DNA of 64,000 nucleotides from an uncultured Thermoproteaceae archaeon (GTDB lineage: Archaea; Thermoproteota; Thermoprotei; Thermoproteales; Thermocladiaceae), in contig CAZNTG010000006.1 of NCBI GenBank assembly GCA_964575955.1, positions 512,001 through 576,000 on the forward strand, read 5' to 3'. Each line of letters opens with the position of its first letter. Positions within the stretch are counted from its first letter, which is position 1. A program made the translations under genes and the position numbers. Of this stretch, positions 30,903-40,646 are shown piece after piece. The notes under the pieces were generated by a model, which was not told where the DNA came from, made no database searches, and saw only the letters and a list, made by a program, of their open reading frames with translations.

Positions 30903-31967
30903 ATGAATATACTTGACATAATTAGAAACTACTCACTAAAAGATATATCAATAGCAGTACTTGCAAGTCATTCAGCATTACAAATATTGAAAGGTGCTAG
31001 AGATGAAAATTTAAGAACTCTATTAATAGTTGAGAAAGATAGACTTGAATTATATGAAGAATTTAGTAATCTAGTTGATAAGTTTTTTATAGTTGAAAAA
31101 TTTAGAGATATTACGAAGATAGTAGATTTATTGAGAAAAGAAAATGCAATACTTATACCACATGGAAGCTCTGTCGAATATGTAGGCTCTGAAACATTTC
31201 TAAACATGCCAATACCAGTATTCGGAAATAGAAAGTTGATGATCTGGGAGAGTAGTCAGAAATTGAAGATGAAATTGCTTAGAGAAGCTGGAATTAAAGT
31301 TCCTAAAGAGTATAGTATAGAGGATGAGATTGATAGACCTGTAATTGTAAAACTTCCAGGAGCTAAAGGTGGTAAATATTTCTTTATAACAAACTCTAGA
31401 GAAGAGATTATTAGAAGAATTGAGAATTATGTTAAAAGTGGTATAGTTAACAATATTGAAGATGTATTAATACAGGAATATGTTATTGGAGTTCCAATGT
31501 ATTTTCACTACTTCTATAGTCCAATGTTTAACAGAGTTGAGATTTTGGGTATAGATATTAGATATGAGACAAATATTGATGGTCTTAAGAGATTTCCACT
31601 AATAGACAAGGTTAGTGTAGAACCAACATTTATAGTTGTTGGTAACATACCTGTAGTTATTAGAGAGAAGATGCTTCAAATAGTATTGAAGTATGGTAAG
31701 ATGTTTGTTGAAAAGAGTAGAGAACTTATACCACCAGGAGCTATAGGTCCATTTTGTCTTGAGAGTATTGTTGTTGATGATAATAATGTAGTTGTATTTG
31801 AGTTTAGTGGTAGAATTGTTGCAGGTACAAACATATACATTGGTTATGGTAGTCCTTATGGTTGGCTTTATTGGAATGAGCCTATGTACATGGGTAGGAG
31901 AATATGTAGAGAGATTAAGATAGCGTGTGAGAGAGGAATAAGGAATCTCGAGCTAATTCTTACATAG
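30903..31967 (+). CDS. purP: Formate--phosphoribosylaminoimidazolecarboxamide ligase (PurP family, ATP-grasp)
   Basis: ASHSALQI..GA, PHGS, GAKGG, RYETNIDG, GPFCLE, FEFSGRIVAGTN. Confidence 0.92.
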   Translation: MNILDIIRNYSLKDISIAVLASHSALQILKGARDENLRTLLIVEKDRLELYEEFSNLVDKFFIVEKFRDITKIVDLLRKENAILIPHGSSVEYVGSETFLNMPIPVFGNRKLMIWESSQKLKMKLLREAGIKVPKEYSIEDEIDRPVIVKLPGAKGGKYFFITNSREEIIRRIENYVKSGIVNNIEDVLIQEYVIGVPMYFHYFYSPMFNRVEILGIDIRYETNIDGLKRFPLIDKVSVEPTFIVVGNIPVVIREKMLQIVLKYGKMFVEKSRELIPPGAIGPFCLESIVVDDNNVVVFEFSGRIVAGTNIYIGYGSPYGWLYWNEPMYMGRRICREIKIACERGIRNLELILT

Positions 31968-32005: not shown

Positions 32006-32878
32006 ATGAAGAAGATAGCTATATATGGCAAGGGTGGTATTGGTAAATCTACAATATCTACAAACATTGCAGCTGCACTCGCAGAAATGGGTCTCAAGGT
32101 GATGGTTGTAGGATGCGATCCTAAGACTGACTGCACCAGAAATCTCCATGGTGGTAAGATGATTAAACCACTACTTGAATATATGAGAGAGCTTGGTCTT
32201 TCTGAAGTTGATGTTTCAGAAATTATCACAGGTAAACAGATAACTCTAGAAGGATTGATTGAGAATAATGTTATTGTTAGAGGTTATAGAGATGTTATAT
32301 GTATAGAGGTTGGAGGCCCTGAACCAGGAATTGGATGTGCAGGTCGTGGAATAATACTTGGAATAGAAACATTGCAAAAAGTTGGAATATTCAACTACTT
32401 CAAACCTGACATAACAATATTTGACGTTCCCGGAGATATTGTATGTGGAGGTCTTGCGATGCCATTAAGAAGAGGATTTGCAGATCAGGTTTACATAGTT
32501 ACAAGTGCTGAATATCTACCACTACACGCAGCTAACAATCTACTCAAAGCTATTAAGAGATTTGCAAATAGAGGAGGTTCAAAACTTGGAGGTATAATAT
32601 ACAATGCTCGTGGACATATTGATAGACCTGAAATTGTAGAAAAATTTGCAGAAATTACAGGAACATCAGTAATATATAAGATACCAAAACTTCCAGAAAT
32701 TGTAGAGGCTGAAAGTAAGGCTAAGACAGTTATAGAGTATGCACCTGAAAGTTATGCAGCTAAAATTTTCAGAGAGCTAGCATATAAAATAGTGAACAAC
32801 AATAGACAAGATATTCCAAGACCATTAAAAAGTGAGGAACTTCATAAACTATATGTACAATATGTTGAACAACTATGA
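32006..32878 (+). CDS. Nitrogenase Fe protein homolog (NifH/NflH-like)
   Basis: YGKGGIGKST, GCDPK.D, EVGGPEPGIGCAGRGI (Cys97/Arg100 equivalents), DVPGDIVCGGLAMP (Cys132 equivalent), AANN, KLGGIIYN. Confidence 0.97.
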   Translation: MKKIAIYGKGGIGKSTISTNIAAALAEMGLKVMVVGCDPKTDCTRNLHGGKMIKPLLEYMRELGLSEVDVSEIITGKQITLEGLIENNVIVRGYRDVICIEVGGPEPGIGCAGRGIILGIETLQKVGIFNYFKPDITIFDVPGDIVCGGLAMPLRRGFADQVYIVTSAEYLPLHAANNLLKAIKRFANRGGSKLGGIIYNARGHIDRPEIVEKFAEITGTSVIYKIPKLPEIVEAESKAKTVIEYAPESYAAKIFRELAYKIVNNNRQDIPRPLKSEELHKLYVQYVEQL

Positions 32879-34320
32879 AAATCATAAACATACCATACGT
32901 ATCAGAAATTGCAAGTAAGATAACAGAAGCATTTCCATTTCACAATGCAGCATGTATAGATGGTAAAATACTTGGAGCATTATGGGCAATATACCAAATC
33001 CGTAATGTTTTACCTATAATTCATGGACCTATAGGATGTAGTTGGCAGAGAAAGTTTGCATTAATGGGTTCAGAAATACATTATTGGACTCCATGTACTG
33101 CATGGTCAGAAACTGAAGTTGTTTATGGTGGTGAGGAGAAACTTTACAAAGCTATAGTTGAAGCTTATGAAAAATTTAAACCAAAGATGATAGTTGTATT
33201 GACTACATGTGCATCAGACATGGTTGGTGATGATGTTGAATATGTTGTAGATAGAGCTAGAAAAGTTGTAAAATGTCCAATAGTATACTCAACAGGAGAT
33301 AAAGTTGGAAAAACTAGACAAGTAGGTTCACAAGACGTTCTATATAGCATAGTTGAACAATACGTAGTACCAAACTGTGAAAATGTAGAAATTGAAGATG
33401 GTACAGTGAACTTGATGACTATAGGTGGTGAGTATAGTAGAAGTATTGTTACAGAGCTAGAGGGAGTTTTAAAAGCTGCTGGATTGAGAGTAAACAAGAT
33501 ATATTTCGAAGATAGAGAAGTTGAAGAATTGTTAGAACTTGCTAAAGTTAGGGTTAACGTTGTACCATACTACCAAGTATGGGCTAGATATCTATCAGAT
33601 GTTAAAGGAGTTAGAGATTTTGTATTGATAAACTTTGAAGAGTACGATCTCGAAAAAGCATATCCATTAGGTTATGAAGCAGCAATAAATAAGATATTTG
33701 AAATATGTAAATTAGCTAATGTAGAACCTGACGAGAAATCTCTAGAAAGATTTTATAAACCAATGTTAGATAGATTTGAGAAAATTAAGCGTAGAGTTAG
33801 TGGATTGAAAGTATGTATTGAAAATGATTGGGGTACATGTATGTTATTTGCACTTAAACTTGGATTAAAGATTGAAGCATTAGTATTTTGGACAGAGCAG
33901 TATAGAGGTCATGGATATAGTGAATCTAGTATAAAAATGATGATTGATGGATATGTACAATACTTGAGACAGTATGGTCAAGATCCTGAAGTTATAGTAG
34001 ATGAGAAATTTGAAAATGTTATAGATAAAATTAAGAGGAGAAATATTGATCTAGTAATTACAGGATGGTGGAGCAAACCATTTAAATATCATAAAAATGG
34101 TGTAGTTGCAATATCTTCAAGAAATCTAAAACTATTCTTTGAATTTGGCCTAACACCACTCATAAATGCTGGAGAAGTTTTAATAAAGAAGATAGAGAAA
34201 GGAATACCAACAAATCCTGTAGTAGATATTGAAATTAATGAGAAACTTCCATATCTATCAAAAAGATGGGGTGAGCTAACACTACTATTTCACTTGAATA
34301 GATATGAAAAACCTGAGTGA
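32875..34320 (+). CDS. Nitrogenase component 1 alpha-like subunit (NifD/NifE/NflD-like)
   Basis: IHGPIGC, E.EVVYGGEEKL..AI, TTCASDMVGDDV; ATGA overlap with the nifH-like gene. Confidence 0.92.
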   Translation: MKIINIPYVSEIASKITEAFPFHNAACIDGKILGALWAIYQIRNVLPIIHGPIGCSWQRKFALMGSEIHYWTPCTAWSETEVVYGGEEKLYKAIVEAYEKFKPKMIVVLTTCASDMVGDDVEYVVDRARKVVKCPIVYSTGDKVGKTRQVGSQDVLYSIVEQYVVPNCENVEIEDGTVNLMTIGGEYSRSIVTELEGVLKAAGLRVNKIYFEDREVEELLELAKVRVNVVPYYQVWARYLSDVKGVRDFVLINFEEYDLEKAYPLGYEAAINKIFEICKLANVEPDEKSLERFYKPMLDRFEKIKRRVSGLKVCIENDWGTCMLFALKLGLKIEALVFWTEQYRGHGYSESSIKMMIDGYVQYLRQYGQDPEVIVDEKFENVIDKIKRRNIDLVITGWWSKPFKYHKNGVVAISSRNLKLFFEFGLTPLINAGEVLIKKIEKGIPTNPVVDIEINEKLPYLSKRWGELTLLFHLNRYEKPE

Positions 34321-35638
34321 GAATATGAATCTTATAGATCCAGTTCATGATTGTAGACTTGTTGGTGTTGTTCGTGCTGTGACTGGTATTCATGATTGTG
34401 CATTGATAATTCATGGAAGACCTGGATGCCATAGCGGACCTCTAGGACTTCAATCACAAACTTCAAGTCAAAGATATGTAAATGTTGTATATAGTGGACT
34501 TAGAAGTGAAGAGATGGTTACAGGAGGTGAAAAGAGGTTAAAGTTAGCTATTGAAAATGTGTATAAAGTTATGAAACCCAAACTCATAGTTGTTGCATCA
34601 GCATCTGCTGCAGGTATTATGGGTGATGATGTTGATGGAGTTATAGGCGAAATATCTAGTAGTGTAAAATGTAGAATAGTTCACATATCTGCATGTGGAT
34701 ATTCAGGTCCTGAATGGACGGGATATGAAGATGCGCTAGTGAAAATAGTTGAAACAGTTTTGGAAGAGTATAAATCTAGACAAAGTTTTGAGAAGACTAA
34801 GAATAGAATATCAATAGTCGGCTTCCATCCTGATGAACCATTCTGGAGAGGTGATCTACAGGAACTTATAAATATACTTAAAGAAATACTCAATGTAGAT
34901 ATTAGTGTAGTCTTAAATTGGTGTTCTATAGAAGAAATATCAAATATAGTAAATAGCGATCTTGTAGTAGTTCTTGGTGGTGATGGTTTGAGTGTTGCAG
35001 ATTATTTAAAGAAAAATTTCAACATAGAATACATAGTAACACCATACCCAATAGGAATTAAGAATACTATAGACATGATATATAGTATAAGCTCTAAACT
35101 AGGTATTGATATTAATACAAAGAAGTTAGAAGCTTATGAAAAATATGTTAGAGACATTATAGAAGATTTTCAAACATATGTTGAAGGTATTTACGGAAAT
35201 GTTAGGTGTGTCATAGTTGGTGAAAGCTCTAGAGCATTTAGTTTAGCAAATTTCTTACTAAATGAGTTAGATTTCGATATTGAATATATCGGTATTAGAA
35301 GTAGAAACTATGTAACAGATAGTGAATTGTTAAAATGGAAGAATTCAGAAATTCTAAATGATAGATATGAACTTTATAAAAAGATCTTGGAAATATCTCC
35401 AGAGGTAGTATATGGTTCAACATTTGAGAGAGATATAGCATTGAGATGTGGATGTGCACTAGTTAGATATTGCTACCCAACTCTAGATAGAGTATACATG
35501 AGTGATAGAACTATAGTTGGATTTAGAGGAGCAATAACATTAATAGAAGAAACTATAAATGAGATGTTAAATATGCAAGAAAAGACAGAACTTGCATATC
35601 TATCAAAGATGAATGATACAAAACTACTTGAGAGATGA
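34304..35638 (+). CDS. Nitrogenase component 1 beta-like subunit (NifK/NifN-like)
   Basis: DP..DC...G, IHGRPGC, EMVTGGEKRL..AI, IMGDDV, PYPIGIKNT, GSTFE, YP..DR...RTIVGFRGA. Confidence 0.92.
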   Translation: MKNLSENMNLIDPVHDCRLVGVVRAVTGIHDCALIIHGRPGCHSGPLGLQSQTSSQRYVNVVYSGLRSEEMVTGGEKRLKLAIENVYKVMKPKLIVVASASAAGIMGDDVDGVIGEISSSVKCRIVHISACGYSGPEWTGYEDALVKIVETVLEEYKSRQSFEKTKNRISIVGFHPDEPFWRGDLQELINILKEILNVDISVVLNWCSIEEISNIVNSDLVVVLGGDGLSVADYLKKNFNIEYIVTPYPIGIKNTIDMIYSISSKLGIDINTKKLEAYEKYVRDIIEDFQTYVEGIYGNVRCVIVGESSRAFSLANFLLNELDFDIEYIGIRSRNYVTDSELLKWKNSEILNDRYELYKKILEISPEVVYGSTFERDIALRCGCALVRYCYPTLDRVYMSDRTIVGFRGAITLIEETINEMLNMQEKTELAYLSKMNDTKLLER

Positions 35639-35684: not shown

Positions 35685-36026
35685 CTAAAATTCTACCTCT
35701 ATACTCACTAATGTATATAGTCCAAATCTTATGAGTGTGTTTTTCATCAATGTTATCTCACTAATTCTGTAGGGTATGCCATTTTCTATTATGTATGTAC
35801 CATTTTTACTTCCAAGATCTTTCAATACTATGTTACTACCTTCCTGAAATATAGATGCGTGTTTTCTAGATACTGATGGGTCTGGTATTATTATTGTATT
35901 TTCTGGACTTCTACCTATAGTTATTTCTCTAAATGATTGTATATGTATATAGAGTTCGTATCCACATAGTTTTTGTAGGGTTGTTTCTATAAACTTAATT
36001 TTGAGTAGTGGTTTTGGTATATGCAT
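35685..36026 (-). CDS. Stand-alone FHA domain protein
   Basis: TIGRS..N, VSRKHA, DLGSKNGT. Confidence 0.92.
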   Translation of the reverse strand: MHIPKPLLKIKFIETTLQKLCGYELYIHIQSFREITIGRSPENTIIIPDPSVSRKHASIFQEGSNIVLKDLGSKNGTYIIENGIPYRISEITLMKNTLIRFGLYTLVSIEVEF

Positions 36027-36043
36027 ACTTAATCTTGATTATT

Positions 36044-38059
36044 CTATGTTGGTGTTGTTATTTGTCTTCTACGTCTTCTAGCTCTTGCTATAGCTATGGC
36101 TATTATTGCTATTATTGCAAATATTACACATATTATCTCAGGTAGGTGTTTATACATTATTGTTGTCATTGTTTCACCAATCTTTATATTTAGAGTTATC
36201 GATTTTACTAGTGTTGGTATGCTGTTAAGTCCATAGATTATGAATGGTTTTGGTGAGTATAATAACATCAATGTTGCATGATATATACCTACAGGTGTTG
36301 AACTATCTATCTCTAACAGATATGTCAATACTATAGTATCTCCTGGTCTTACCTCTCCAACATATATTTGATTTGCTGTCATTGCAGCTAGTGGATTGTT
36401 TTGTGGTACATGAAATGTCAATACTTTAGGTATTGATAATATTGCTTTAACATTTTCAAGAGTTGGCCCTCTAACATACTTTAGATATATTCTAAGTATT
36501 GCTCTACTAGATCCAGGGTAAAATCCTATCTCTTCAATTTTAACAACCTTGAACTCCGGTTTTGGAATTACTTTGAAAGTTACATAATAATCTTCATCAA
36601 CATCACAGTAATGTACGTTAATCTTCAAAATATATGTTCTAGGTGTAACATTATCAGGTACATTAAACATGAACTGTATTGGTATTGGCTTTCCAGGTGG
36701 TACTGCTGGTAATGTTATACTAGTCATATTTGGTGTATATGTTGAAAATTCTCTAGGCAATACTAGTCTAATAGTTACATTTTTTGCAATAACACTTCCA
36801 ACATTTACAATACTTACATTAAGTCTAATACCATTCATTCCGGGTGTTGCTATTGGTGGCATTGGTATTGCATATGCTACTCTAATCTTTGGTGAATATA
36901 TTACAATCTTCACAGTATGGACTTCTCTAACATGATCATACATGAATATAACCTGTATTGGATACTTACCTCCAGATATGTTCTGCAATGTCGATACTAT
37001 AAACGTTACCGGTATCTCTCTACCAGCAGTTACAACACCAATATTCTTACATAGAAGACCTGAACCTTTAAGTGGCTTTTCAAGTCTTATACATACGGTT
37101 AAGTTATCTATAGCTGATGTTGGTATAAACATTACTGTTAGAGGAATTTTACTATATCCAGGACCTACAGAAAATACCTTTCCTGGAAATCCCCAATATG
37201 CTGTGACAGCACTAAACTTAACCTCAGGAATACATAATCTAAATGATGTATTTAAAGTCCATGTAACACCAATACCATACTTAACAAATAGTTTTTCAGA
37301 ATAACAACCACCAGTAACATTATTGTAGAGATTTACTAGGTATGTTAATGTTATTGGTTTTCCTGGAGGTAATGCAGGTAGTGTAATGTTTAGATATTTA
37401 ACAATCTTCCCATTCTTAGTTGCATAGATTGGATATGATAATTTTAGTTGTATTGTCACATTTTCTAGAATTGATGTACCACTATTCATAACTATGATTG
37501 TTAATGGTATATTCTTCATTCCCGGTCCAACAATTTGATAGTTTTTATATCCGAGATATGCACCTAGAACCTGTATTCCTGAAGTTCCTATTATTGGAAG
37601 CTTTTGTGTATATTCTAAATGTTCATGTGTACAGTATTGACCTCTTTGAGTAACTATGCATATGTAGTAGTATGTTTCAATTTTGAAATCTTTAAATCCT
37701 GTAGATACTGTTGGAGGAATTCTCAAGTAGAATATACATGTACTATTCATTCCTGGAGCCATATATGGTATTTTACATATCTGTACACCACTAAACCACT
37801 CAATATTATCTGGAAGTTCTAACCATACTCTAACATCTTTGAAATAGAATTTTACACCTGATATGTTAGGTATGACTATTCCTACCTTGAGAATTGCAAG
37901 ACTTGTTCCTGGGCTTGGAACTTTAGGTTCTAGCCAATATGCGTAGACTATTGGAGTTATCTCACTCGTACTAACTGTCTGACAATGTACAACTTCAAGC
38001 CCTACCACTGATATTATCAGTGTAAGTGTTATAAGCAATATCTTGACTACTCTACTCAT
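36044..38059 (-). CDS. Surface-anchored protein with repeated Ig-like domains (COG1361/S-layer-domain-like)
   Basis: Signal peptide; repeated N.G...NVTI.L and LPA.PPGKPI motifs; many NxT sequons; C-terminal TM helix plus RRRRR tail. Confidence 0.8.
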   Translation of the reverse strand: MSRVVKILLITLTLIISVVGLEVVHCQTVSTSEITPIVYAYWLEPKVPSPGTSLAILKVGIVIPNISGVKFYFKDVRVWLELPDNIEWFSGVQICKIPYMAPGMNSTCIFYLRIPPTVSTGFKDFKIETYYYICIVTQRGQYCTHEHLEYTQKLPIIGTSGIQVLGAYLGYKNYQIVGPGMKNIPLTIIVMNSGTSILENVTIQLKLSYPIYATKNGKIVKYLNITLPALPPGKPITLTYLVNLYNNVTGGCYSEKLFVKYGIGVTWTLNTSFRLCIPEVKFSAVTAYWGFPGKVFSVGPGYSKIPLTVMFIPTSAIDNLTVCIRLEKPLKGSGLLCKNIGVVTAGREIPVTFIVSTLQNISGGKYPIQVIFMYDHVREVHTVKIVIYSPKIRVAYAIPMPPIATPGMNGIRLNVSIVNVGSVIAKNVTIRLVLPREFSTYTPNMTSITLPAVPPGKPIPIQFMFNVPDNVTPRTYILKINVHYCDVDEDYYVTFKVIPKPEFKVVKIEEIGFYPGSSRAILRIYLKYVRGPTLENVKAILSIPKVLTFHVPQNNPLAAMTANQIYVGEVRPGDTIVLTYLLEIDSSTPVGIYHATLMLLYSPKPFIIYGLNSIPTLVKSITLNIKIGETMTTIMYKHLPEIICVIFAIIAIIAIAIARARRRRRQITTPT

Positions 38060-38157
38060 ACAGCTTACGTTAGCATTTCCATATTATAAACATTACTTGT
38101 TAGACATGTACTACATGTCCTATACGTACTACATATATACCTCTACACTGTACTGTA

Positions 38158-39591
38158 GTGAAGATGAGTAAAATTAAGGTAACTAGAGGCTACATGATCA
38201 GGATTACCATAGTCCTATCATTGTTAGCTATGTTAGCTATGTATACTGAAACTATGATTCTTCCAGCATTTCCAAGATTGATGCATGAATTTCATGTTAG
38301 AGAATCAGACATAGCTTGGATACTTACAGCATATCTACTCAGTGGTGTAGCATCTACGCCACTAATGGGAAAATTTAGCGATATTTATGGTAGAAAGAAG
38401 ATTCTACTGATAGTATTGACAATATACGCTATTGGACTTACAGCATGTGGATTATCACACTCATTTCCATCACTAATACTCTCAAGAGCTATCCAAGGCT
38501 TTGGAATGGCAATGTTTCCAATAGCGTTTAGCATTGTTAGAGAACAACTTCCAATGGAGATGGTTCCATTAGCACAAGGTATGATTAGTGCTATGTTTGG
38601 TATTGGTGCAATTATTGGTCTTGTGATAGGTTCACATATAATTCAGTGGTACGGTTGGAGAACACTATTTCACACAGCTGCAATACTTGCATGGACTTTA
38701 ATACCTGTAGAACACTTTCTCATAGAGGAGAAGTATAGACCTCCAATAAAGGCTAAAGTTGACTATGTAGGAATAATGTTGATATCTGTAGGAACAACAT
38801 TACTATGCTACGCTTTTGAATCAGCAGCACATTATGGATGGACTAGCAGTTCTGTAATTGCATCAATAATTTCAGGATTAATATGCTATATAGCATTCAT
38901 AGAGTGGGAAAGATATACACCAGAACCTGTAGTACCACTATCAAGACTTAGAGAAATAAACGTTCTAGTTAGTAATCTTGCAGGTGCTGTTGCTGGACTT
39001 GGAATGTTCATGTTCTTTCAAGTATTTGTAATATATCTACAACTACCAAAACCTGCTGGTCTAGGCTTAACAATAGTAGAGACAGGGTACTACATGACAT
39101 TACCATCACTAGTCATGTTACTGACATCAGGAATGGTCGGCAGGATAATTCCAAAGATTGGTGTTAAAAAATCACTACTAATATCAGCAATATACTTATC
39201 AATTGCAGGTGCAATATTTCAACTAGTAAATCTATCAAGTCTATGGCAAGTAATTGCTGCATCATGTATTGTCATGTCAGCTATTGGAGCTCTACTAGTA
39301 AGTTTGATAAACCTACTAGTACTATCAGTACCTGTAGAAGAAGTTGGATTATTAACAGGAATAAACATGATTCTCAGATATGTAGGTGGTTCATTAGGAA
39401 CAGCACTTGGAGGATATCTTCAATCAACAATAACAACAACAGTACTATTCTACATGTTTGGAAAATTCATACCTATAACATTTGCATCACCAACAGTCGT
39501 TAAAATATCTATGCTAGTAGTAACAGGACTTGGAATACTAATATTCCTACTCTGCATTAAAGCAAAAGAGATATTTCAAAGAAGAGTTTGA
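38158..39591 (+). CDS. MFS transporter (EmrB/QacA-like)
   Basis: WILTAYLL, GKFSDIYGRK motif A, RAIQGFG, GWR..F; many TM segments. Confidence 0.93.
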   Translation: MKMSKIKVTRGYMIRITIVLSLLAMLAMYTETMILPAFPRLMHEFHVRESDIAWILTAYLLSGVASTPLMGKFSDIYGRKKILLIVLTIYAIGLTACGLSHSFPSLILSRAIQGFGMAMFPIAFSIVREQLPMEMVPLAQGMISAMFGIGAIIGLVIGSHIIQWYGWRTLFHTAAILAWTLIPVEHFLIEEKYRPPIKAKVDYVGIMLISVGTTLLCYAFESAAHYGWTSSSVIASIISGLICYIAFIEWERYTPEPVVPLSRLREINVLVSNLAGAVAGLGMFMFFQVFVIYLQLPKPAGLGLTIVETGYYMTLPSLVMLLTSGMVGRIIPKIGVKKSLLISAIYLSIAGAIFQLVNLSSLWQVIAASCIVMSAIGALLVSLINLLVLSVPVEEVGLLTGINMILRYVGGSLGTALGGYLQSTITTTVLFYMFGKFIPITFASPTVVKISMLVVTGLGILIFLLCIKAKEIFQRRV

Positions 39592-40115
39592 ATTCTAGAT
39601 TTTACAGAATTTAAAATATTTATACAAAAACCATAGCCATAATCTCTAATACAGTCACAATATAGTTGTAGTCTAGTAATTATATCAGTAAGTATAGAAA
39701 TTTCAACATCTTTAACAACATCTGAAGAACTTCTCAAAGAATTCTTAATAACATTCTCAATATAGATATTAAATACATCATTTAGAAGATTACATATTTT
39801 ATCAACATTCTCTAAAATAAACCTTAACATTCTTAAAATATCTTCACTAATCTTAAAACATCTCTTAACATTAACATACATAAGGTAGTGATGTAGTGAT
39901 GTACATATATCTTTATTACGAATATCTCTTAAATATTTCTCAAACTCTTCACAAGAATTAATCATTCTAACTATGAAACTCCTTAAATCTCCATGACATT
40001 TATCTAAACATTTTATAAATGATTCATATAGATTTAAACCATTCTCAACACCATCTTCAACACATCTACAAAACTCTTCCTCATTTACAATATCCATACT
40101 AGATTTATAATTCAC
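39576..40115 (-). CDS. Hypothetical Cys-rich helical protein
   Basis: 179-aa ORF with genome-typical codon use; no motif recognised. Confidence 0.55.
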   Translation of the reverse strand: MNYKSSMDIVNEEEFCRCVEDGVENGLNLYESFIKCLDKCHGDLRSFIVRMINSCEEFEKYLRDIRNKDICTSLHHYLMYVNVKRCFKISEDILRMLRFILENVDKICNLLNDVFNIYIENVIKNSLRSSSDVVKDVEISILTDIITRLQLYCDCIRDYGYGFCINILNSVKSRIQTLL

Positions 40116-40130
40116 AGTTTTTAGTTAAAT

Positions 40131-40646
40131 TTGATATCTATGACTTATGAAGAGTTGAAGTATAGGATATGTAGAGAGTGTGGTGCTAGATGTTGTAAAA
40201 GATTTGATTACAAAAATTGGTTTGTAACACTATCATTGAGAGATATAGTTAGAATATCTGAAGGATTAGGTAAGGATTTAGAATATGTATTAAATAACTA
40301 TATAGAAATAATAAGAATCGGTAGTAGCATAATCTTAACATTGAAAGTTATTAATAGAGTATGCATATTTCTGAGAGAAGATAGATGTACAATTCAGAAG
40401 TTTAAACCAATAGCGTGTAGAGTATATCCAGTATACATACCTGGAATGTACATAGATCCACAATGTCCACTATCGAAATATCCAGAGCTACTCAAAGATG
40501 AAGAAATGTACGTATATCAATACGTTAAAGAACATTTAGAAACTCAGAAAATATTAGAAGAATATTCACCAAAAAGTATTAGAGATATAGCATGGATAAT
40601 TAGAGAAACCCTTAAAGACCTAGATAAAAACATAGAAACTAGCTAG
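40131..40646 (+). CDS. YkgJ/FliB family cysteine-cluster protein
   Basis: CRECGARCC...CIFL....CTI...KPIACRVYP. Confidence 0.88.
   Translation: MISMTYEELKYRICRECGARCCKRFDYKNWFVTLSLRDIVRISEGLGKDLEYVLNNYIEIIRIGSSIILTLKVINRVCIFLREDRCTIQKFKPIACRVYPVYIPGMYIDPQCPLSKYPELLKDEEMYVYQYVKEHLETQKILEEYSPKSIRDIAWIIRETLKDLDKNIETS

What the first reader, a model, noticed from the sequence alone, without database searches (positions are those of the whole stretch)
32875..35638. Atypical metallocluster ligand set in the D/K-like subunits
Seen, alpha-like subunit: Cys55 (HGPIGC) and Cys112 (TTC) are present. The first ligand position, 25 residues before Cys55, is Gly30 (GGT, 32962-32964), with Cys27 and Asp29 just upstream (ACIDGKILGA). 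The region matching the NifD Cys275 loop reads VNVVPYYQ, and I find no His442-type MHSW motif. Seen, beta-like subunit: Cys17 and Cys42 are present, the third position is Ser (ASASAAGIMGDD), and there is an extra Cys in SACGY near the NifK Ser188 loop. Known: P-clusters need 3+3 Cys, FeMo-co needs Cys275 and His442, and DPOR uses 3 Cys plus Asp for one [4Fe-4S]. Inference: no FeMo-co and a non-standard interface cluster, so not N2 fixation. The alignment was done by eye.
Basis: partly seen in the sequence, partly recalled or inferred. Interest (0 to 1): 0.8.

Follow-up and report, generated by a model that had tools for sequence, protein, structure and literature searches.

The report
Nitrogenase-like enzyme with reduced cysteine set
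A heat-vent archaeon carries a three-gene relative of nitrogenase whose two large subunits keep only four of the six usual iron-sulfur-cluster cysteines and none of the nitrogen-fixing cofactor ligands, so it most likely does some other, still unknown, reduction.

Summary
The window encodes a tightly coupled nifH-like / alpha-like / beta-like operon (32006-35638, + strand). A MAFFT alignment with annotated NifD/K/E/N, BchY/Z and a CfbD puts alpha Gly30 at NifD Cys62, Cys55 at Cys88, Cys112 at Cys154, beta Cys17 at NifK Cys70, Cys42 at Cys95 and Ser101 at Cys153. No Cys275 or His442 equivalent exists. The pattern is conserved, not an error: Gly/Ala at position 30 in 39 of 39 relatives, Ser101 in 25 of 31, and independent metagenome contigs carry the same codons. 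The genome (94.7% complete) showed no NifB, no further PF00148 gene (so no NifEN) and no MCR.

Cys27/Asp29 are confined to the closest subclade (7 and 6 of 39). The SACGY Cys is variable (8 of 35). An invariant alpha Cys74 (39 of 39) and a near-invariant beta His43 were missed.

Best reading: an uncharacterised archaeal nitrogenase-like reductase, shared with ANME/Methanosarcinales-type genomes. It carries a simple interfacial Fe-S cluster on a 2+2 canonical Cys set, a permutation I did not find among the described families. Substrate unknown; a tetrapyrrole-type cofactor is the leading guess. Not N2 fixation.

The parts
32006..32878 (+). nifH-like ATP-dependent reductase (290 aa), the only PF00142 gene found in the genome
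   Evidence: PF00142 300.8 bits. NCBIfam NF009701 'nitrogenase reductase-like protein' 358.4 bits against a cut-off of 350; below the cut-offs of nifH, CfbC, BchL and BchX. 42% identical to Rahnella NifH, with GKGGIGKST, GGPEPGIGCAGRG and DVPGDIVCGG aligned to the NifH P-loop and the two cluster-Cys motifs, and a roughly 15-residue insertion. One match in the genome. Its stop overlaps the alpha start by 4 nt.
32875..34320 (+). alpha-like (NifD/NifE-side) subunit, 481 aa
   Evidence: PF00148 153.4 bits. Best NCBIfam match is NifE at 80.9 bits against a cut-off of 505. Groups with NifD+NifE in the tree, SH-aLRT 83. AF2 model pLDDT 79.8. Foldseek TM 0.5-0.58 to NifD/K, MarD and BchB.
32953..32964 (+). 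alpha codons 27-30 (Cys-Ile-Asp-Gly); Gly30 sits at the NifD Cys62 position
   Evidence: Sequence read; alignment. Position 30 is Gly 38/39 and Ala 1/39, Cys 0/39; Cys27 7/39; Asp29 6/39. An independent contig of X3 covers it with 0 differences.
33037..33039 (+). alpha Cys55 (HGPIGC), NifD Cys88 position
   Evidence: 39/39 Cys; alignment; in the predicted alpha/beta interface.
33094..33096 (+). alpha Cys74 (TPCT), a non-canonical invariant Cys; NifD, NifE and CfbD have Thr here
   Evidence: 39/39 Cys. Aligned to Thr in Rahnella NifD/NifE and in the G043 CfbD. Named in the predicted interface, touching beta residue 12. Also present in related clades that keep the first Cys.
33208..33210 (+). 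alpha Cys112 (LTTCASD), NifD Cys154 position
   Evidence: 40/40 Cys; alignment; interface residues 111-113.
34304..35638 (+). beta-like subunit, 444 aa (or 437 aa from 34325)
   Evidence: PF00148 241.8 bits. Best NCBIfam match is BchB at 116.6 bits against a cut-off of 490. Best PDB sequence match is chain C of the methylthio-alkane reductase entries 9d9u/9fmg, 86.8 bits (entry titles). AF2 pLDDT 84.8. The database copy covers 98% of the ORF.
34352..34354 (+). beta Cys17 (HDCRL), NifK Cys70 position
   Evidence: 27/31 Cys; alignment; interface residues 8-17. Coordinates computed from the ORF start.
34427..34432 (+). beta Cys42-His43 (PGCHS); Cys42 is at the NifK Cys95 position
   Evidence: Cys42 31/31, His43 27/31; alignment. 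Coordinates computed from the ORF start.
34604..34606 (+). beta Ser101 (ASASAAGIMGDD), NifK Cys153 position
   Evidence: Ser 25/31; alignment. An X2 contig over 34360-35163 has 0 differences. Interface residues 101-102.
34694..34696 (+). beta Cys131 (SACGY), variable, one residue before the NifK 'TPSF' Ser position
   Evidence: Cys 8/35; otherwise Gly 12, His 5, Tyr 4, Ala 4, Ser 1, Pro 1; interface residues 131-136.

Best explanation
The three genes encode a two-component nitrogenase-like (NFL) reductase of an uncharacterised archaeal clade.

Shown:
- A NifH-type ATPase with intact P-loop and both cluster cysteines, translationally coupled to two different PF00148 subunits that are predicted to pair.
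- The pair keeps Cys at four of the six P-cluster positions: the alpha NifD-88 and -154 types, and the beta NifK-70 and -95 types.
- An invariant Gly sits at the 62-type position and a conserved Ser at the 153-type position.
- An invariant extra alpha Cys74 and a near-invariant beta His43 lie in the same interface.
- There are no FeMo-co ligands, and the genome showed no NifB, NifEN or MCR.

Inferred:
- The H dimer delivers low-potential electrons, at ATP cost, to one simple Fe-S cluster that bridges alpha and beta. Most likely this is a [4Fe-4S] held by two Cys from each subunit.
- From there the electrons go to an organic substrate bound in the alpha/beta body, not to a metal cofactor.
- The substrate is unknown. 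The leading guess is reduction of a tetrapyrrole-type cofactor or intermediate.
- In the window's own subclade, Cys27/Asp29 next to Gly30 may add a further ligand.

It does not fix N2.
For: Operon and domains. H motifs.

Ligand mapping against annotated NifD/K/E/N, verified BchY/Z (702 and 806 bits) and a bona fide CfbD (509 bits). Conservation counts; also 18 of 18 full-length 50%-cluster representatives of the core family lack Cys at position 30 (15 Gly, 3 Ala; my reading).

Not an assembly error. No NifB, only two PF00148 genes, one PF00142 gene, no MCR alpha, in a 94.7% complete genome.

Alpha/beta pairing: ipSAE 0.83 against a best control of 0.00. That mark was reached by 58 of 80 solved complexes and 2 of 110 mismatched pairs. 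The three runs agree in at least 95% of contacts and the partner pLDDT is 90. All candidate ligand residues lie in or next to the listed interface. This is a textbook pair, so the pass may reflect likeness to solved NifDK-type complexes.

Precedent for 4-Cys [4Fe-4S] sites in NFL enzymes, from review PMC13474568 (sections 16, 43, 46, 59 read): CfbD 2+2 (the Cys88/Cys154 types from each monomer), DPOR 3 Cys + Asp, ISR 1+3 predicted, Group VI at most four of six.

Tetrapyrrole lead. The characterised simple-cluster NFLs DPOR, COR and CfbCD all reduce tetrapyrroles (same review). The genome has ALAD and six TP_methylase genes over cut-off. Of the 21 related loci, 7 carry a SAM methyltransferase family, 5 a FecCD permease and 5 a BtuF-type binding protein beside the genes; a radical-SAM gene lies in locus L023 (annotation).
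Against: - Five, not four, Cys are conserved at the interface, plus Ser101 and His43. A larger or double cluster, such as a P-like 8Fe cluster with a relocated alpha ligand and a Ser ligand, is not excluded.
- No model coordinates were available, so no Cys-to-cluster distances could be measured. The AF2 monomer has pLDDT under 50 for alpha residues 1-29 and about 55 around Cys74.
- Cys74 also occurs in related clades that keep the first Cys (at least 9 representatives with an 'I-D/N-C-K' motif). It therefore need not replace the lost ligand and may have another role.
- The transporter and methyltransferase neighbourhood is seen almost only in the ANME/Methanosarcinales-type loci and in one Thermoproteota locus (L005). 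In the window the neighbours are a PurP paralog, an isochorismatase-family gene and an FHA gene. In L004 they are CODH, Ech-like genes and a SagB-like nitroreductase.
- ISR shows that a 4-Cys NFL can cleave C-S bonds instead of reducing tetrapyrroles.
- No expression data were found.
Confidence: 0.6

Rival explanations
1. The interface holds a P-cluster-like 8Fe cluster or a pair of [4Fe-4S] clusters. It would be ligated by five Cys (alpha 55, 74, 112; beta 17, 42) plus beta Ser101 and/or His43, with alpha Cys74 (or Cys27 in the window's subclade) standing in for the missing Cys62-type ligand.
For: Five invariant or near-invariant Cys plus conserved Ser101 and His43 all lie in the predicted interface. 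P-cluster formation needs NifH but not NifB (recalled, not checked here). MAR shows that an NFL can hold a true P-cluster and can swap Cys ligands between redox states (review section 8.2.2, passage seen).
Against: Every system known to hold a P-cluster keeps all six canonical Cys (review section 2.4). Cys74 coexists with a canonical first Cys in sister clades, so it is not obviously a replacement. Its position relative to the cluster could not be measured.
Confidence: 0.2
2. It is a C-S bond-cleaving, sulfur-acquisition enzyme in the manner of isethionate reductase (ISR) or methylthio-alkane reductase (MAR), not a tetrapyrrole reductase.
For: ISR is predicted to use a 4-Cys [4Fe-4S] site. Radical-SAM genes lie near some family loci (L004, L023). 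The best PDB sequence match of the beta-like subunit is chain C of the methylthio-alkane reductase entries 9d9u/9fmg, at 86.8 bits.
Against: No NifB or IsrB-like gene is next to the operon and no NifB was found in the genome. No sulfur-metabolism genes flank it in the window. The ligand set differs from ISR (1+3) and from MAR (six Cys plus Cys/His). That PDB match is far below any family cut-off and ties with AnfK/VnfK.
Confidence: 0.15
3. It is a decayed or misassembled nitrogenase or CfbCD copy with no function.
For: Loss of canonical ligands could be read as decay; no RNA evidence was obtainable.
Against: All three ORFs are intact and coupled. The same substitutions are fixed in relatives that are only 29-55% identical. 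The genes are in 6 of 6 other genomes of the genus. Independent contigs agree. There are 49 invariant alpha columns across 15 diverse members. An ANME-type genome has a separate bona fide CfbD beside this family.
Confidence: 0.02
4. It is a working nitrogenase of an unusual kind (Nfa-like).
For: HDK gene order; the H protein scores 348.6 bits on the nifH model.
Against: That score is below the nifH cut-off of 394. There are no Cys275/His442 equivalents, only 4 of 6 P-cluster Cys, and no NifB or NifEN was found.
Confidence: 0.02

Closest known systems
[quoted passage not shown]
   Same: A NifH-like reductase plus a PF00148 catalytic component with no FeMo-co ligands. The alpha-like subunit keeps exactly the two Cys that CfbD uses (the NifD Cys88 and Cys154 types) and lacks the Cys62 type (review section 6.2).
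   Different: CfbD is a homodimer with a symmetric 2+2 site. Here two different subunits give an asymmetric 2+2 (beta supplies the Cys70 and Cys95 types). TIGR03282 scores only 64 bits against a cut-off of 268. No MCR was found in the genome. An ANME-type genome has this family in addition to a real CfbD.
Group VI NFL of Elusimicrobia (Meheust et al. 2020; review section 7)
   Same: HDK or HD systems without NifB and without FeMo-co ligands, with at most four of the six P-cluster Cys, proposed to act on a tetrapyrrole.
   Different: Group VI is bacterial, and its loci are rich in radical-SAM genes, which the window's locus is not. Whether this archaeal clade is related to Group VI could not be tested, because no Group VI sequences were on hand and their alignment figures and supplements were not visible.
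Isethionate reductase IsrHDK (Group IV-F)
   Same: A heteromeric D/K pair with only four canonical Cys and no L/M-cluster ligands; a [4Fe-4S] is predicted.
   Different: ISR keeps NifD Cys88 plus NifK Cys70/95/153 (1+3). Here the set is 2+2 with Ser at the 153 position. ISR works with a radical-SAM IsrB, and none is adjacent here.
NifEN, DPOR (BchNB) and COR (BchYZ)
   Same: The same fold and a single interfacial [4Fe-4S] in place of a P-cluster. NifE is the best sequence match of the alpha-like subunit.
   Different: These use three Cys from the alpha-type subunit plus one ligand (Cys or Asp) from the beta-type subunit; the Cys patterns are seen and the ligand assignments come. All equivalog cut-offs are missed by a wide margin.
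NifDK / MarDK (P-cluster enzymes)
   Same: HDK operon, predicted heteromer, cluster site at the same interface.
   Different: Six Cys plus Cys/His cofactor ligands and NifB dependence define them. None of these features is met here.

Membership tests
Nitrogenase component 1 (NifDK/VnfDK/AnfDK) | Three P-cluster Cys in each subunit (NifD 62/88/154; NifK 70/95/153) | tested here: not met
   Gly30 and Ser101 occupy the 62 and 153 positions; this is conserved in the family.
Nitrogenase component 1 (NifDK/VnfDK/AnfDK) | FeMo-co ligands Cys275 and His442 | tested here: not met
   The Cys falls on a gap next to Pro; no His is aligned.
Nitrogenase component 1 (NifDK/VnfDK/AnfDK) | NifB (and usually NifEN) in the genome; equivalog score cut-offs | tested here: not met
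   No TIGR01290 match. Only two PF00148 genes. nifD 67 bits against 654 and nifK 83 bits against 427. Genome 94.7% complete.
Nitrogenase-like (NFL) superfamily | NifH-family ATPase with P-loop and two cluster Cys, encoded together with PF00148 subunits | tested here: met
   overlapping genes.
CfbCD (Group IV-B) | Single homodimeric CfbD over the TIGR03282 cut-off; CfbC over the NF033200 cut-off; occurs with MCR/F430 | tested here: not met
   64 bits against 268 and 315 bits against 402. Two distinct subunits. No MCR alpha found.
DPOR / COR (Group V) | Three Cys in N/Y plus Asp/Cys in B/Z; equivalog cut-offs | tested here: not met
   The pattern is 2+2. BchB 117 bits against 490, BchN 39 against 420, BchZ 36 against 529.
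Group IV-A/C/D/E (Nfa, MAR and relatives) | Six P-cluster Cys plus Cys/His for an L/M-like cluster; nflB in the cluster (passages of PMC13753814) | tested here: not met
ISR (Group IV-F) | Cys at NifD 88 and at NifK 70/95/153 only (review section 9.4) | tested here: not met
   The alpha subunit also keeps the 154-type Cys and the beta subunit has Ser at 153.
Group VI NFL | At most four of six P-cluster Cys; no FeMo-co ligands; no NifB | tested here: met
   definition.
Group VI NFL | Phylogenetic placement with the Elusimicrobia/Myxococcales/Gracilibacteria sequences | not testable with these tools
   No Group VI sequences could be fetched. Supplements and figures are closed, and cluster names were unavailable.

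The most novel reading that the evidence does not exclude
A NifB-less, non-methanogenic hyperthermophile builds a new kind of interfacial cluster: 8Fe or double-cubane, on five Cys plus Ser/His, with the alpha ligand relocated to Cys74 (or Cys27). It uses this cluster, at ATP cost, to reduce a metallo-tetrapyrrole that is either imported or drawn from its own corrinoid pathway. That would be a fourth tetrapyrrole-reducing nitrogenase-like enzyme, after DPOR, COR and CfbCD, and a living intermediate between [4Fe-4S] and P-cluster sites.
Probability: 0.12. Interest if true: 0.85.

Novelty: new variant of a known kind. Interest (0 to 1): 0.55.

Why it matters
Nitrogenase-like enzymes are a small set of ATP-driven, very low-potential reductases, and each newly characterised branch (DPOR, COR, CfbCD, MAR, ISR) has revealed new chemistry. 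This clade adds a ligand permutation not listed among the characterised ones: alpha 88/154-type plus beta 70/95-type Cys, with an invariant extra Cys.

It sits in a vent-dwelling Thermoproteota genus in which neither MCR nor NifB was found, and in ANME/Methanosarcinales-type archaea that carry it in several copies beside BtuF/FecCD-type transporters and methyltransferases.

It gives a compact, thermostable HDK system in which to ask two questions: how cluster nuclearity follows the Cys pattern in this fold, and what these archaea reduce with it. The wider profile search found about 99 cluster representatives at E <= 1e-30 with several different Cys patterns, which suggests a larger unexplored radiation.

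Tried and rejected
- Structure-based distances. Neither structure prediction nor complex prediction gave coordinates, and /data held none. Cys-to-cluster distances could therefore not be measured; only the interface residue list was usable.
- Foldseek on the alpha model gave near-equal TM scores (0.5-0.58) to NifD, NifK, MarD, BchB and NifEN, so it did not discriminate.
- Sigma-70 promoter and terminator scan: counts equal to the shuffles, and not suited to an archaeon.
- Rfam scan of the window: only two tRNAs.
- RNA evidence: no RNA holder was listed by the look-up of sequencing runs, so nothing can be said on expression.
- Group label. Five literature searches and passages or sections of five papers found no description of a Thermoproteota or ANME HDK clade with this Cys pattern. 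In one search, none of the 15 listed papers held 'nitrogenase-like' together with a Thermoproteota term. Dong et al. 2022 name a 'group VIII' of nifH-like genes from cold seeps without details; I cannot tell whether it is this clade. Figures and supplements (the alignment figures of the review, Fig. S5 of Meheust et al., the sequence lists of North et al.) were not visible and may bear on the novelty claim.
- PurP link. The ATP-grasp PurP paralog upstream is also adjacent in a same-genus genome, but the whole neighbourhood is syntenic there, so this is no evidence of a functional link.
- Pseudogene and sequencing-error readings are rejected (see rivals).
- One search failed through my own wrong coordinates and was not repeated.

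Full report
WHAT IS THERE. Three + strand ORFs follow one another with overlapping ends: a nifH-like gene (32006-32878, 290 aa), an alpha-like gene (32875-34320, 481 aa) and a beta-like gene (34304-35638, 444 aa). The database copy of the beta-like protein begins at Met8, i.e. 34325, four bases after the alpha stop. Pfam gives Fer4_NifH (300.8 bits) and Oxidored_nitro for both large subunits (153.4 and 241.8 bits). In NCBIfam the H protein passes only the subfamily model NF009701, 'nitrogenase reductase-like protein' (358.4 against 350). It stays below the cut-offs for nifH, CfbC, BchL and BchX. The two large subunits reach no equivalog cut-off at all: the best are NifE at 81 bits for alpha and BchB at 117 bits for beta. 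The best PDB sequence matches are a NifEN fusion for alpha (97.5 bits) and chain C of the methylthio-alkane reductase entries 9d9u/9fmg, AnfK and VnfK for beta (84-87 bits) (entry titles).

THE OBSERVATION. The DNA reads TGT ATA GAT GGT at 32953-32964 (Cys27-Ile-Asp29-Gly30), TGT at 33037-33039 (Cys55) and TGT at 33208-33210 (Cys112). For reference sequences I used three sources:
- the annotated nifD, nifK, nifE and nifN of a Rahnella plasmid, whose NifD numbering matches the usual one at Cys62 and Cys88;
- BchY and BchZ of a Methylobacterium plasmid (ORFs picked, verified at 702 and 806 bits);
- a bona fide CfbD from an ANME-type genome (509 bits).

MAFFT L-INS-i with family members gives these equivalences:
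- NifD Cys62 = alpha Gly30, Cys88 = Cys55, Cys154 = Cys112.
- NifK Cys70 = beta Cys17, Cys95 = Cys42, Cys153 = Ser101.
- The NifD 'LVHCYRS' Cys falls on a gap beside the Pro of 'VNVVPYYQ'.
- The 'QMHSWDY' His has no His opposite it.
- Beta Cys131 lies one residue before the NifK 'TPSF' Ser position.

IS IT AN ERROR OR A DECAYED COPY? No. I pooled the database homologs with proteins translated from 21 related loci, removed duplicates, and classed them by BLAST.
- In the alpha family (42 sequences, 39 with an N-terminus) position 30 is Gly in 38 and Ala in 1, never Cys. Cys55 is 39/39, Cys112 40/40.
- In the beta family (35 sequences, 31 with an N-terminus) Cys17 is 27/31, Cys42 31/31 and Ser101 25/31 (Asp 3, Thr 1, Asn 1, Cys 1). 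The three Gly-at-17 / Asp-at-101 rows are a second, more distant paralog pair of the ANME-type loci.
- Contigs of two other sequencing runs cover codon 30 (X3, 0 differences) and the Ser101 codon (X2, 0 differences). A third run, possibly the source, is identical over the whole operon.
- X2 shows two T>C differences, at 33467 and 34106, away from any ligand codon. One further X2 difference in 32780-32971 was not located by the tool.

Cys27 and Asp29 occur only in the window's closest subclade (7/39 and 6/39); most members have Pro at 29, in an 'IPGK' motif. The SACGY Cys is variable (8/35). Two conserved features were not noticed. One is alpha Cys74 in a 'TPCT' motif, 39/39, where NifD, NifE and CfbD have Thr. 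The other is beta His43, directly after Cys42 (27/31).

In a predicted alpha/beta complex, with a [4Fe-4S] riding along, the median score is 0.83 against a best control of 0.00. That mark was reached by 58 of 80 solved complexes and 2 of 110 mismatched pairs. The runs agree in at least 95% of contacts and the partner pLDDT is 90. The listed interface holds alpha 26-30, 51-61, 70-79 and 111-113 and beta 8-17, 38-41, 43-49, 101-102 and 131-136. Listed contacts include alpha 27 and 33 with beta 44, alpha 57 with beta 16, and alpha 74 with beta 12.

This pair resembles solved NifDK-type complexes, so the pass shows likeness rather than independent proof. It does place all candidate residues at the expected cluster site. 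No coordinates were returned, so distances to the cluster are unknown. In the AF2 monomer, alpha residues 1-29 are below pLDDT 50.

GENOME AND DISTRIBUTION. The window lies in a 1.52 Mb, 15-contig genome that is 94.7% complete. That genome has just these two PF00148 genes and one PF00142 gene. It showed no NifB match and no MCR alpha. It does have ALAD and six TP_methylase genes over cut-off, so it makes tetrapyrroles.

Among 40 relatives, the beta-like profile hits all 6 other genomes of the same genus and none of the 34 genomes in 7 other genera of the same family or order at E <= 1e-20. Those are samples, not proof of absence. Three of the five same-genus genomes searched show the nifH-like gene, two of them at contig ends; all five are 69-88% complete. 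The two labelled runs that hold the DNA (X1, a possible source, and X3) are marked hydrothermal vent metagenome.

The remaining relatives, 29-37% identical, come from MAGs titled Methanosarcinales or Methanobacteriota, and one protein is named by NCBI as from an ANME-1 cluster archaeon. In a quick ML tree the alpha family (with a second ANME-type paralog) is sister to NifD+NifE with weak support (SH-aLRT 83). The beta family is a clade of its own (93). CfbD and BchY/Z are long separate branches. This patchy distribution suggests transfer between ANME-type archaea and this one Thermoproteota genus; that is an inference.

NEIGHBOURHOODS. In the window the operon is preceded by an isochorismatase-family gene and a PurP-family ATP-grasp gene, and followed by a convergent FHA gene and a large membrane protein. 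The genome has a second PurP paralog, and the adjacency recurs in a same-genus genome (71% identity), but so does the rest of the local gene order.

In the ANME-type loci the picture differs. Two or three D/K/H sets sit together with BtuF-type binding proteins (Peripla_BP_2), FecCD permeases, ABC ATPases, SAM methyltransferases, a PNPOx-like protein and a radical-SAM gene. Within the stretches fetched, the methyltransferase family is in 7 of the 21 loci, and FecCD and the binding protein are in 5 each. Many loci are short contigs. Only one Thermoproteota locus (L005) shares this. Another (L004) has CODH, Ech-like subunits and a SagB-like nitroreductase upstream. One ANME-type genome has a bona fide CfbD elsewhere, so this family is not simply its CfbD.

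COMPARISON WITH KNOWN SYSTEMS. From the 2026 review by North and Shafaat (PMC13474568; outline, sections 2.4, 6.2, 7 and 9.4, and passages read):
- True nitrogenases and MAR keep six Cys plus Cys/His.
- CfbD uses the Cys88 and Cys154 types from each monomer, a symmetric 2+2 [4Fe-4S].
- DPOR uses three Cys plus an Asp.
- ISR is predicted to use NifD Cys88 with NifK Cys70/95/153.
- Group VI of Elusimicrobia has at most four of the six.
- Groups IV-A, C, D and E keep nearly all the nitrogenase residues and travel with nflB (passages of PMC13753814).

The present family keeps the alpha 88/154 types and the beta 70/95 types. That is an asymmetric 2+2, not among the arrangements the sections I read describe. 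It fails the defining tests of nitrogenase, CfbCD, DPOR/COR, MAR-type Group IV and ISR. It fits the loose description of Group VI, but its relationship to those bacterial sequences could not be tested.

THE WIDER RADIATION. A profile of 15 alpha-family members, searched against 1.84 billion cluster representatives, found 1981 proteins at E <= 0.001, 872 at <= 1e-10 and 99 at <= 1e-30. I aligned the listed ones of at least 330 residues. By my reading of that table:
- The 18 full-length core-family representatives have Gly (15) or Ala (3) at position 30. Cys55 and Cys74 are present in 18/18 and Cys112 in 17/18.
- A neighbouring clade of at least 9 representatives has Cys at position 30 (an 'I-D/N-C-K' motif) as well as Cys74.
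- Another clade keeps Gly30 but lacks Cys112.

The Gly30 state thus looks derived. Cys74 is older than the loss of the first ligand, which weakens the idea that Cys74 simply replaces it. The taxonomy of these clusters could not be obtained.

MECHANISM. Shown: an intact H-type ATPase, two distinct partner subunits, a conserved non-canonical ligand set at their interface, and no sign of FeMo-co ligands or of its assembly genes.

Inferred: H transfers electrons, with ATP hydrolysis, to one simple bridging Fe-S cluster, most probably a [4Fe-4S] on alpha Cys55/Cys112 and beta Cys17/Cys42. The cluster in turn reduces an organic substrate bound in the protein. Cys74, His43 and Ser101 may tune or extend the site, or serve in proton delivery. 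Cys27/Asp29 may add a ligand in the window's own subclade. A tetrapyrrole-type substrate is the leading guess, from the precedent of DPOR, COR and CfbCD, from the organism's own tetrapyrrole pathway, and from the transporter and methyltransferase context in the ANME-type loci. The context is not conserved in the Thermoproteota, and ISR shows that other chemistry is possible.

VERDICT. The finding is real and correctly interpreted in outline. It is a conserved, functional-looking, uncharacterised nitrogenase-like reductase with a new permutation of cluster ligands, and not a nitrogenase.

Noticed in passing
window 30903-31967 (+): A PurP-family ATP-grasp gene (DUF1246 + DUF1297) ends 38 nt before the nifH-like gene. 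The genome has a second paralog on another contig, and the same adjacency occurs in a same-genus genome at 71% identity. This is probably plain synteny.
   Followed up: partly
L023 1-21257; L010 1-18921; L017 1-11779: ANME/Methanosarcinales-type loci carry two or three D/K/H sets in a row. They are embedded among up to four BtuF-type binding-protein genes, FecCD permeases, ABC ATPases, SAM methyltransferases, a PNPOx-like gene and a radical-SAM gene. One set (L010 4880-7631) is a more distant D/K pair whose K-type subunit has Gly at the Cys70 position and Asp at the 153 position.
   Followed up: partly
P0155, P0157, P0158, P0161, P0162, P0171, P0172, P0182, P0184 and P0170-type representatives: Neighbouring unnamed clades of the alpha-like family show other Cys patterns. 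One keeps the first Cys (an 'I-D/N-C-K' motif) together with the Cys74-type Cys. Another keeps Gly30 but has lost the Cys154-type Cys. Their sources could not be looked up.
   Followed up: partly
L004 3307-8291: In a same-genus MAG, one alpha/beta pair is preceded by a CO-dehydrogenase (Prismane family), Ech/complex-I-like hydrogenase subunits, a ferredoxin and a SagB-family nitroreductase-like gene. No nifH-like gene is adjacent.
   Followed up: partly
window 32006-32878, residues about 64-78 of the H protein: The nifH-like protein has an insertion of about 15 residues relative to Rahnella NifH, between switch I and the first cluster Cys.
   Followed up: no
window 35685-40646: A convergent FHA-domain gene, a 671-aa membrane or surface protein, a 477-aa multi-helix membrane protein (not scanned against any family library) and two small genes follow the operon. 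They are syntenic in loci L003 and L016 of same-genus MAGs.
   Followed up: no
window 33467 and 34106: Contigs of run X2 differ from the window by T>C at these two places inside the alpha-like ORF, at depth 7.4 and 4.8. Neither is at a candidate ligand codon.
   Followed up: no
window 34304 vs 34325: The beta-like start is ambiguous. The longest ORF overlaps the alpha gene by 17 nt, while the database copy starts at Met8, four bases after the alpha stop.
   Followed up: no
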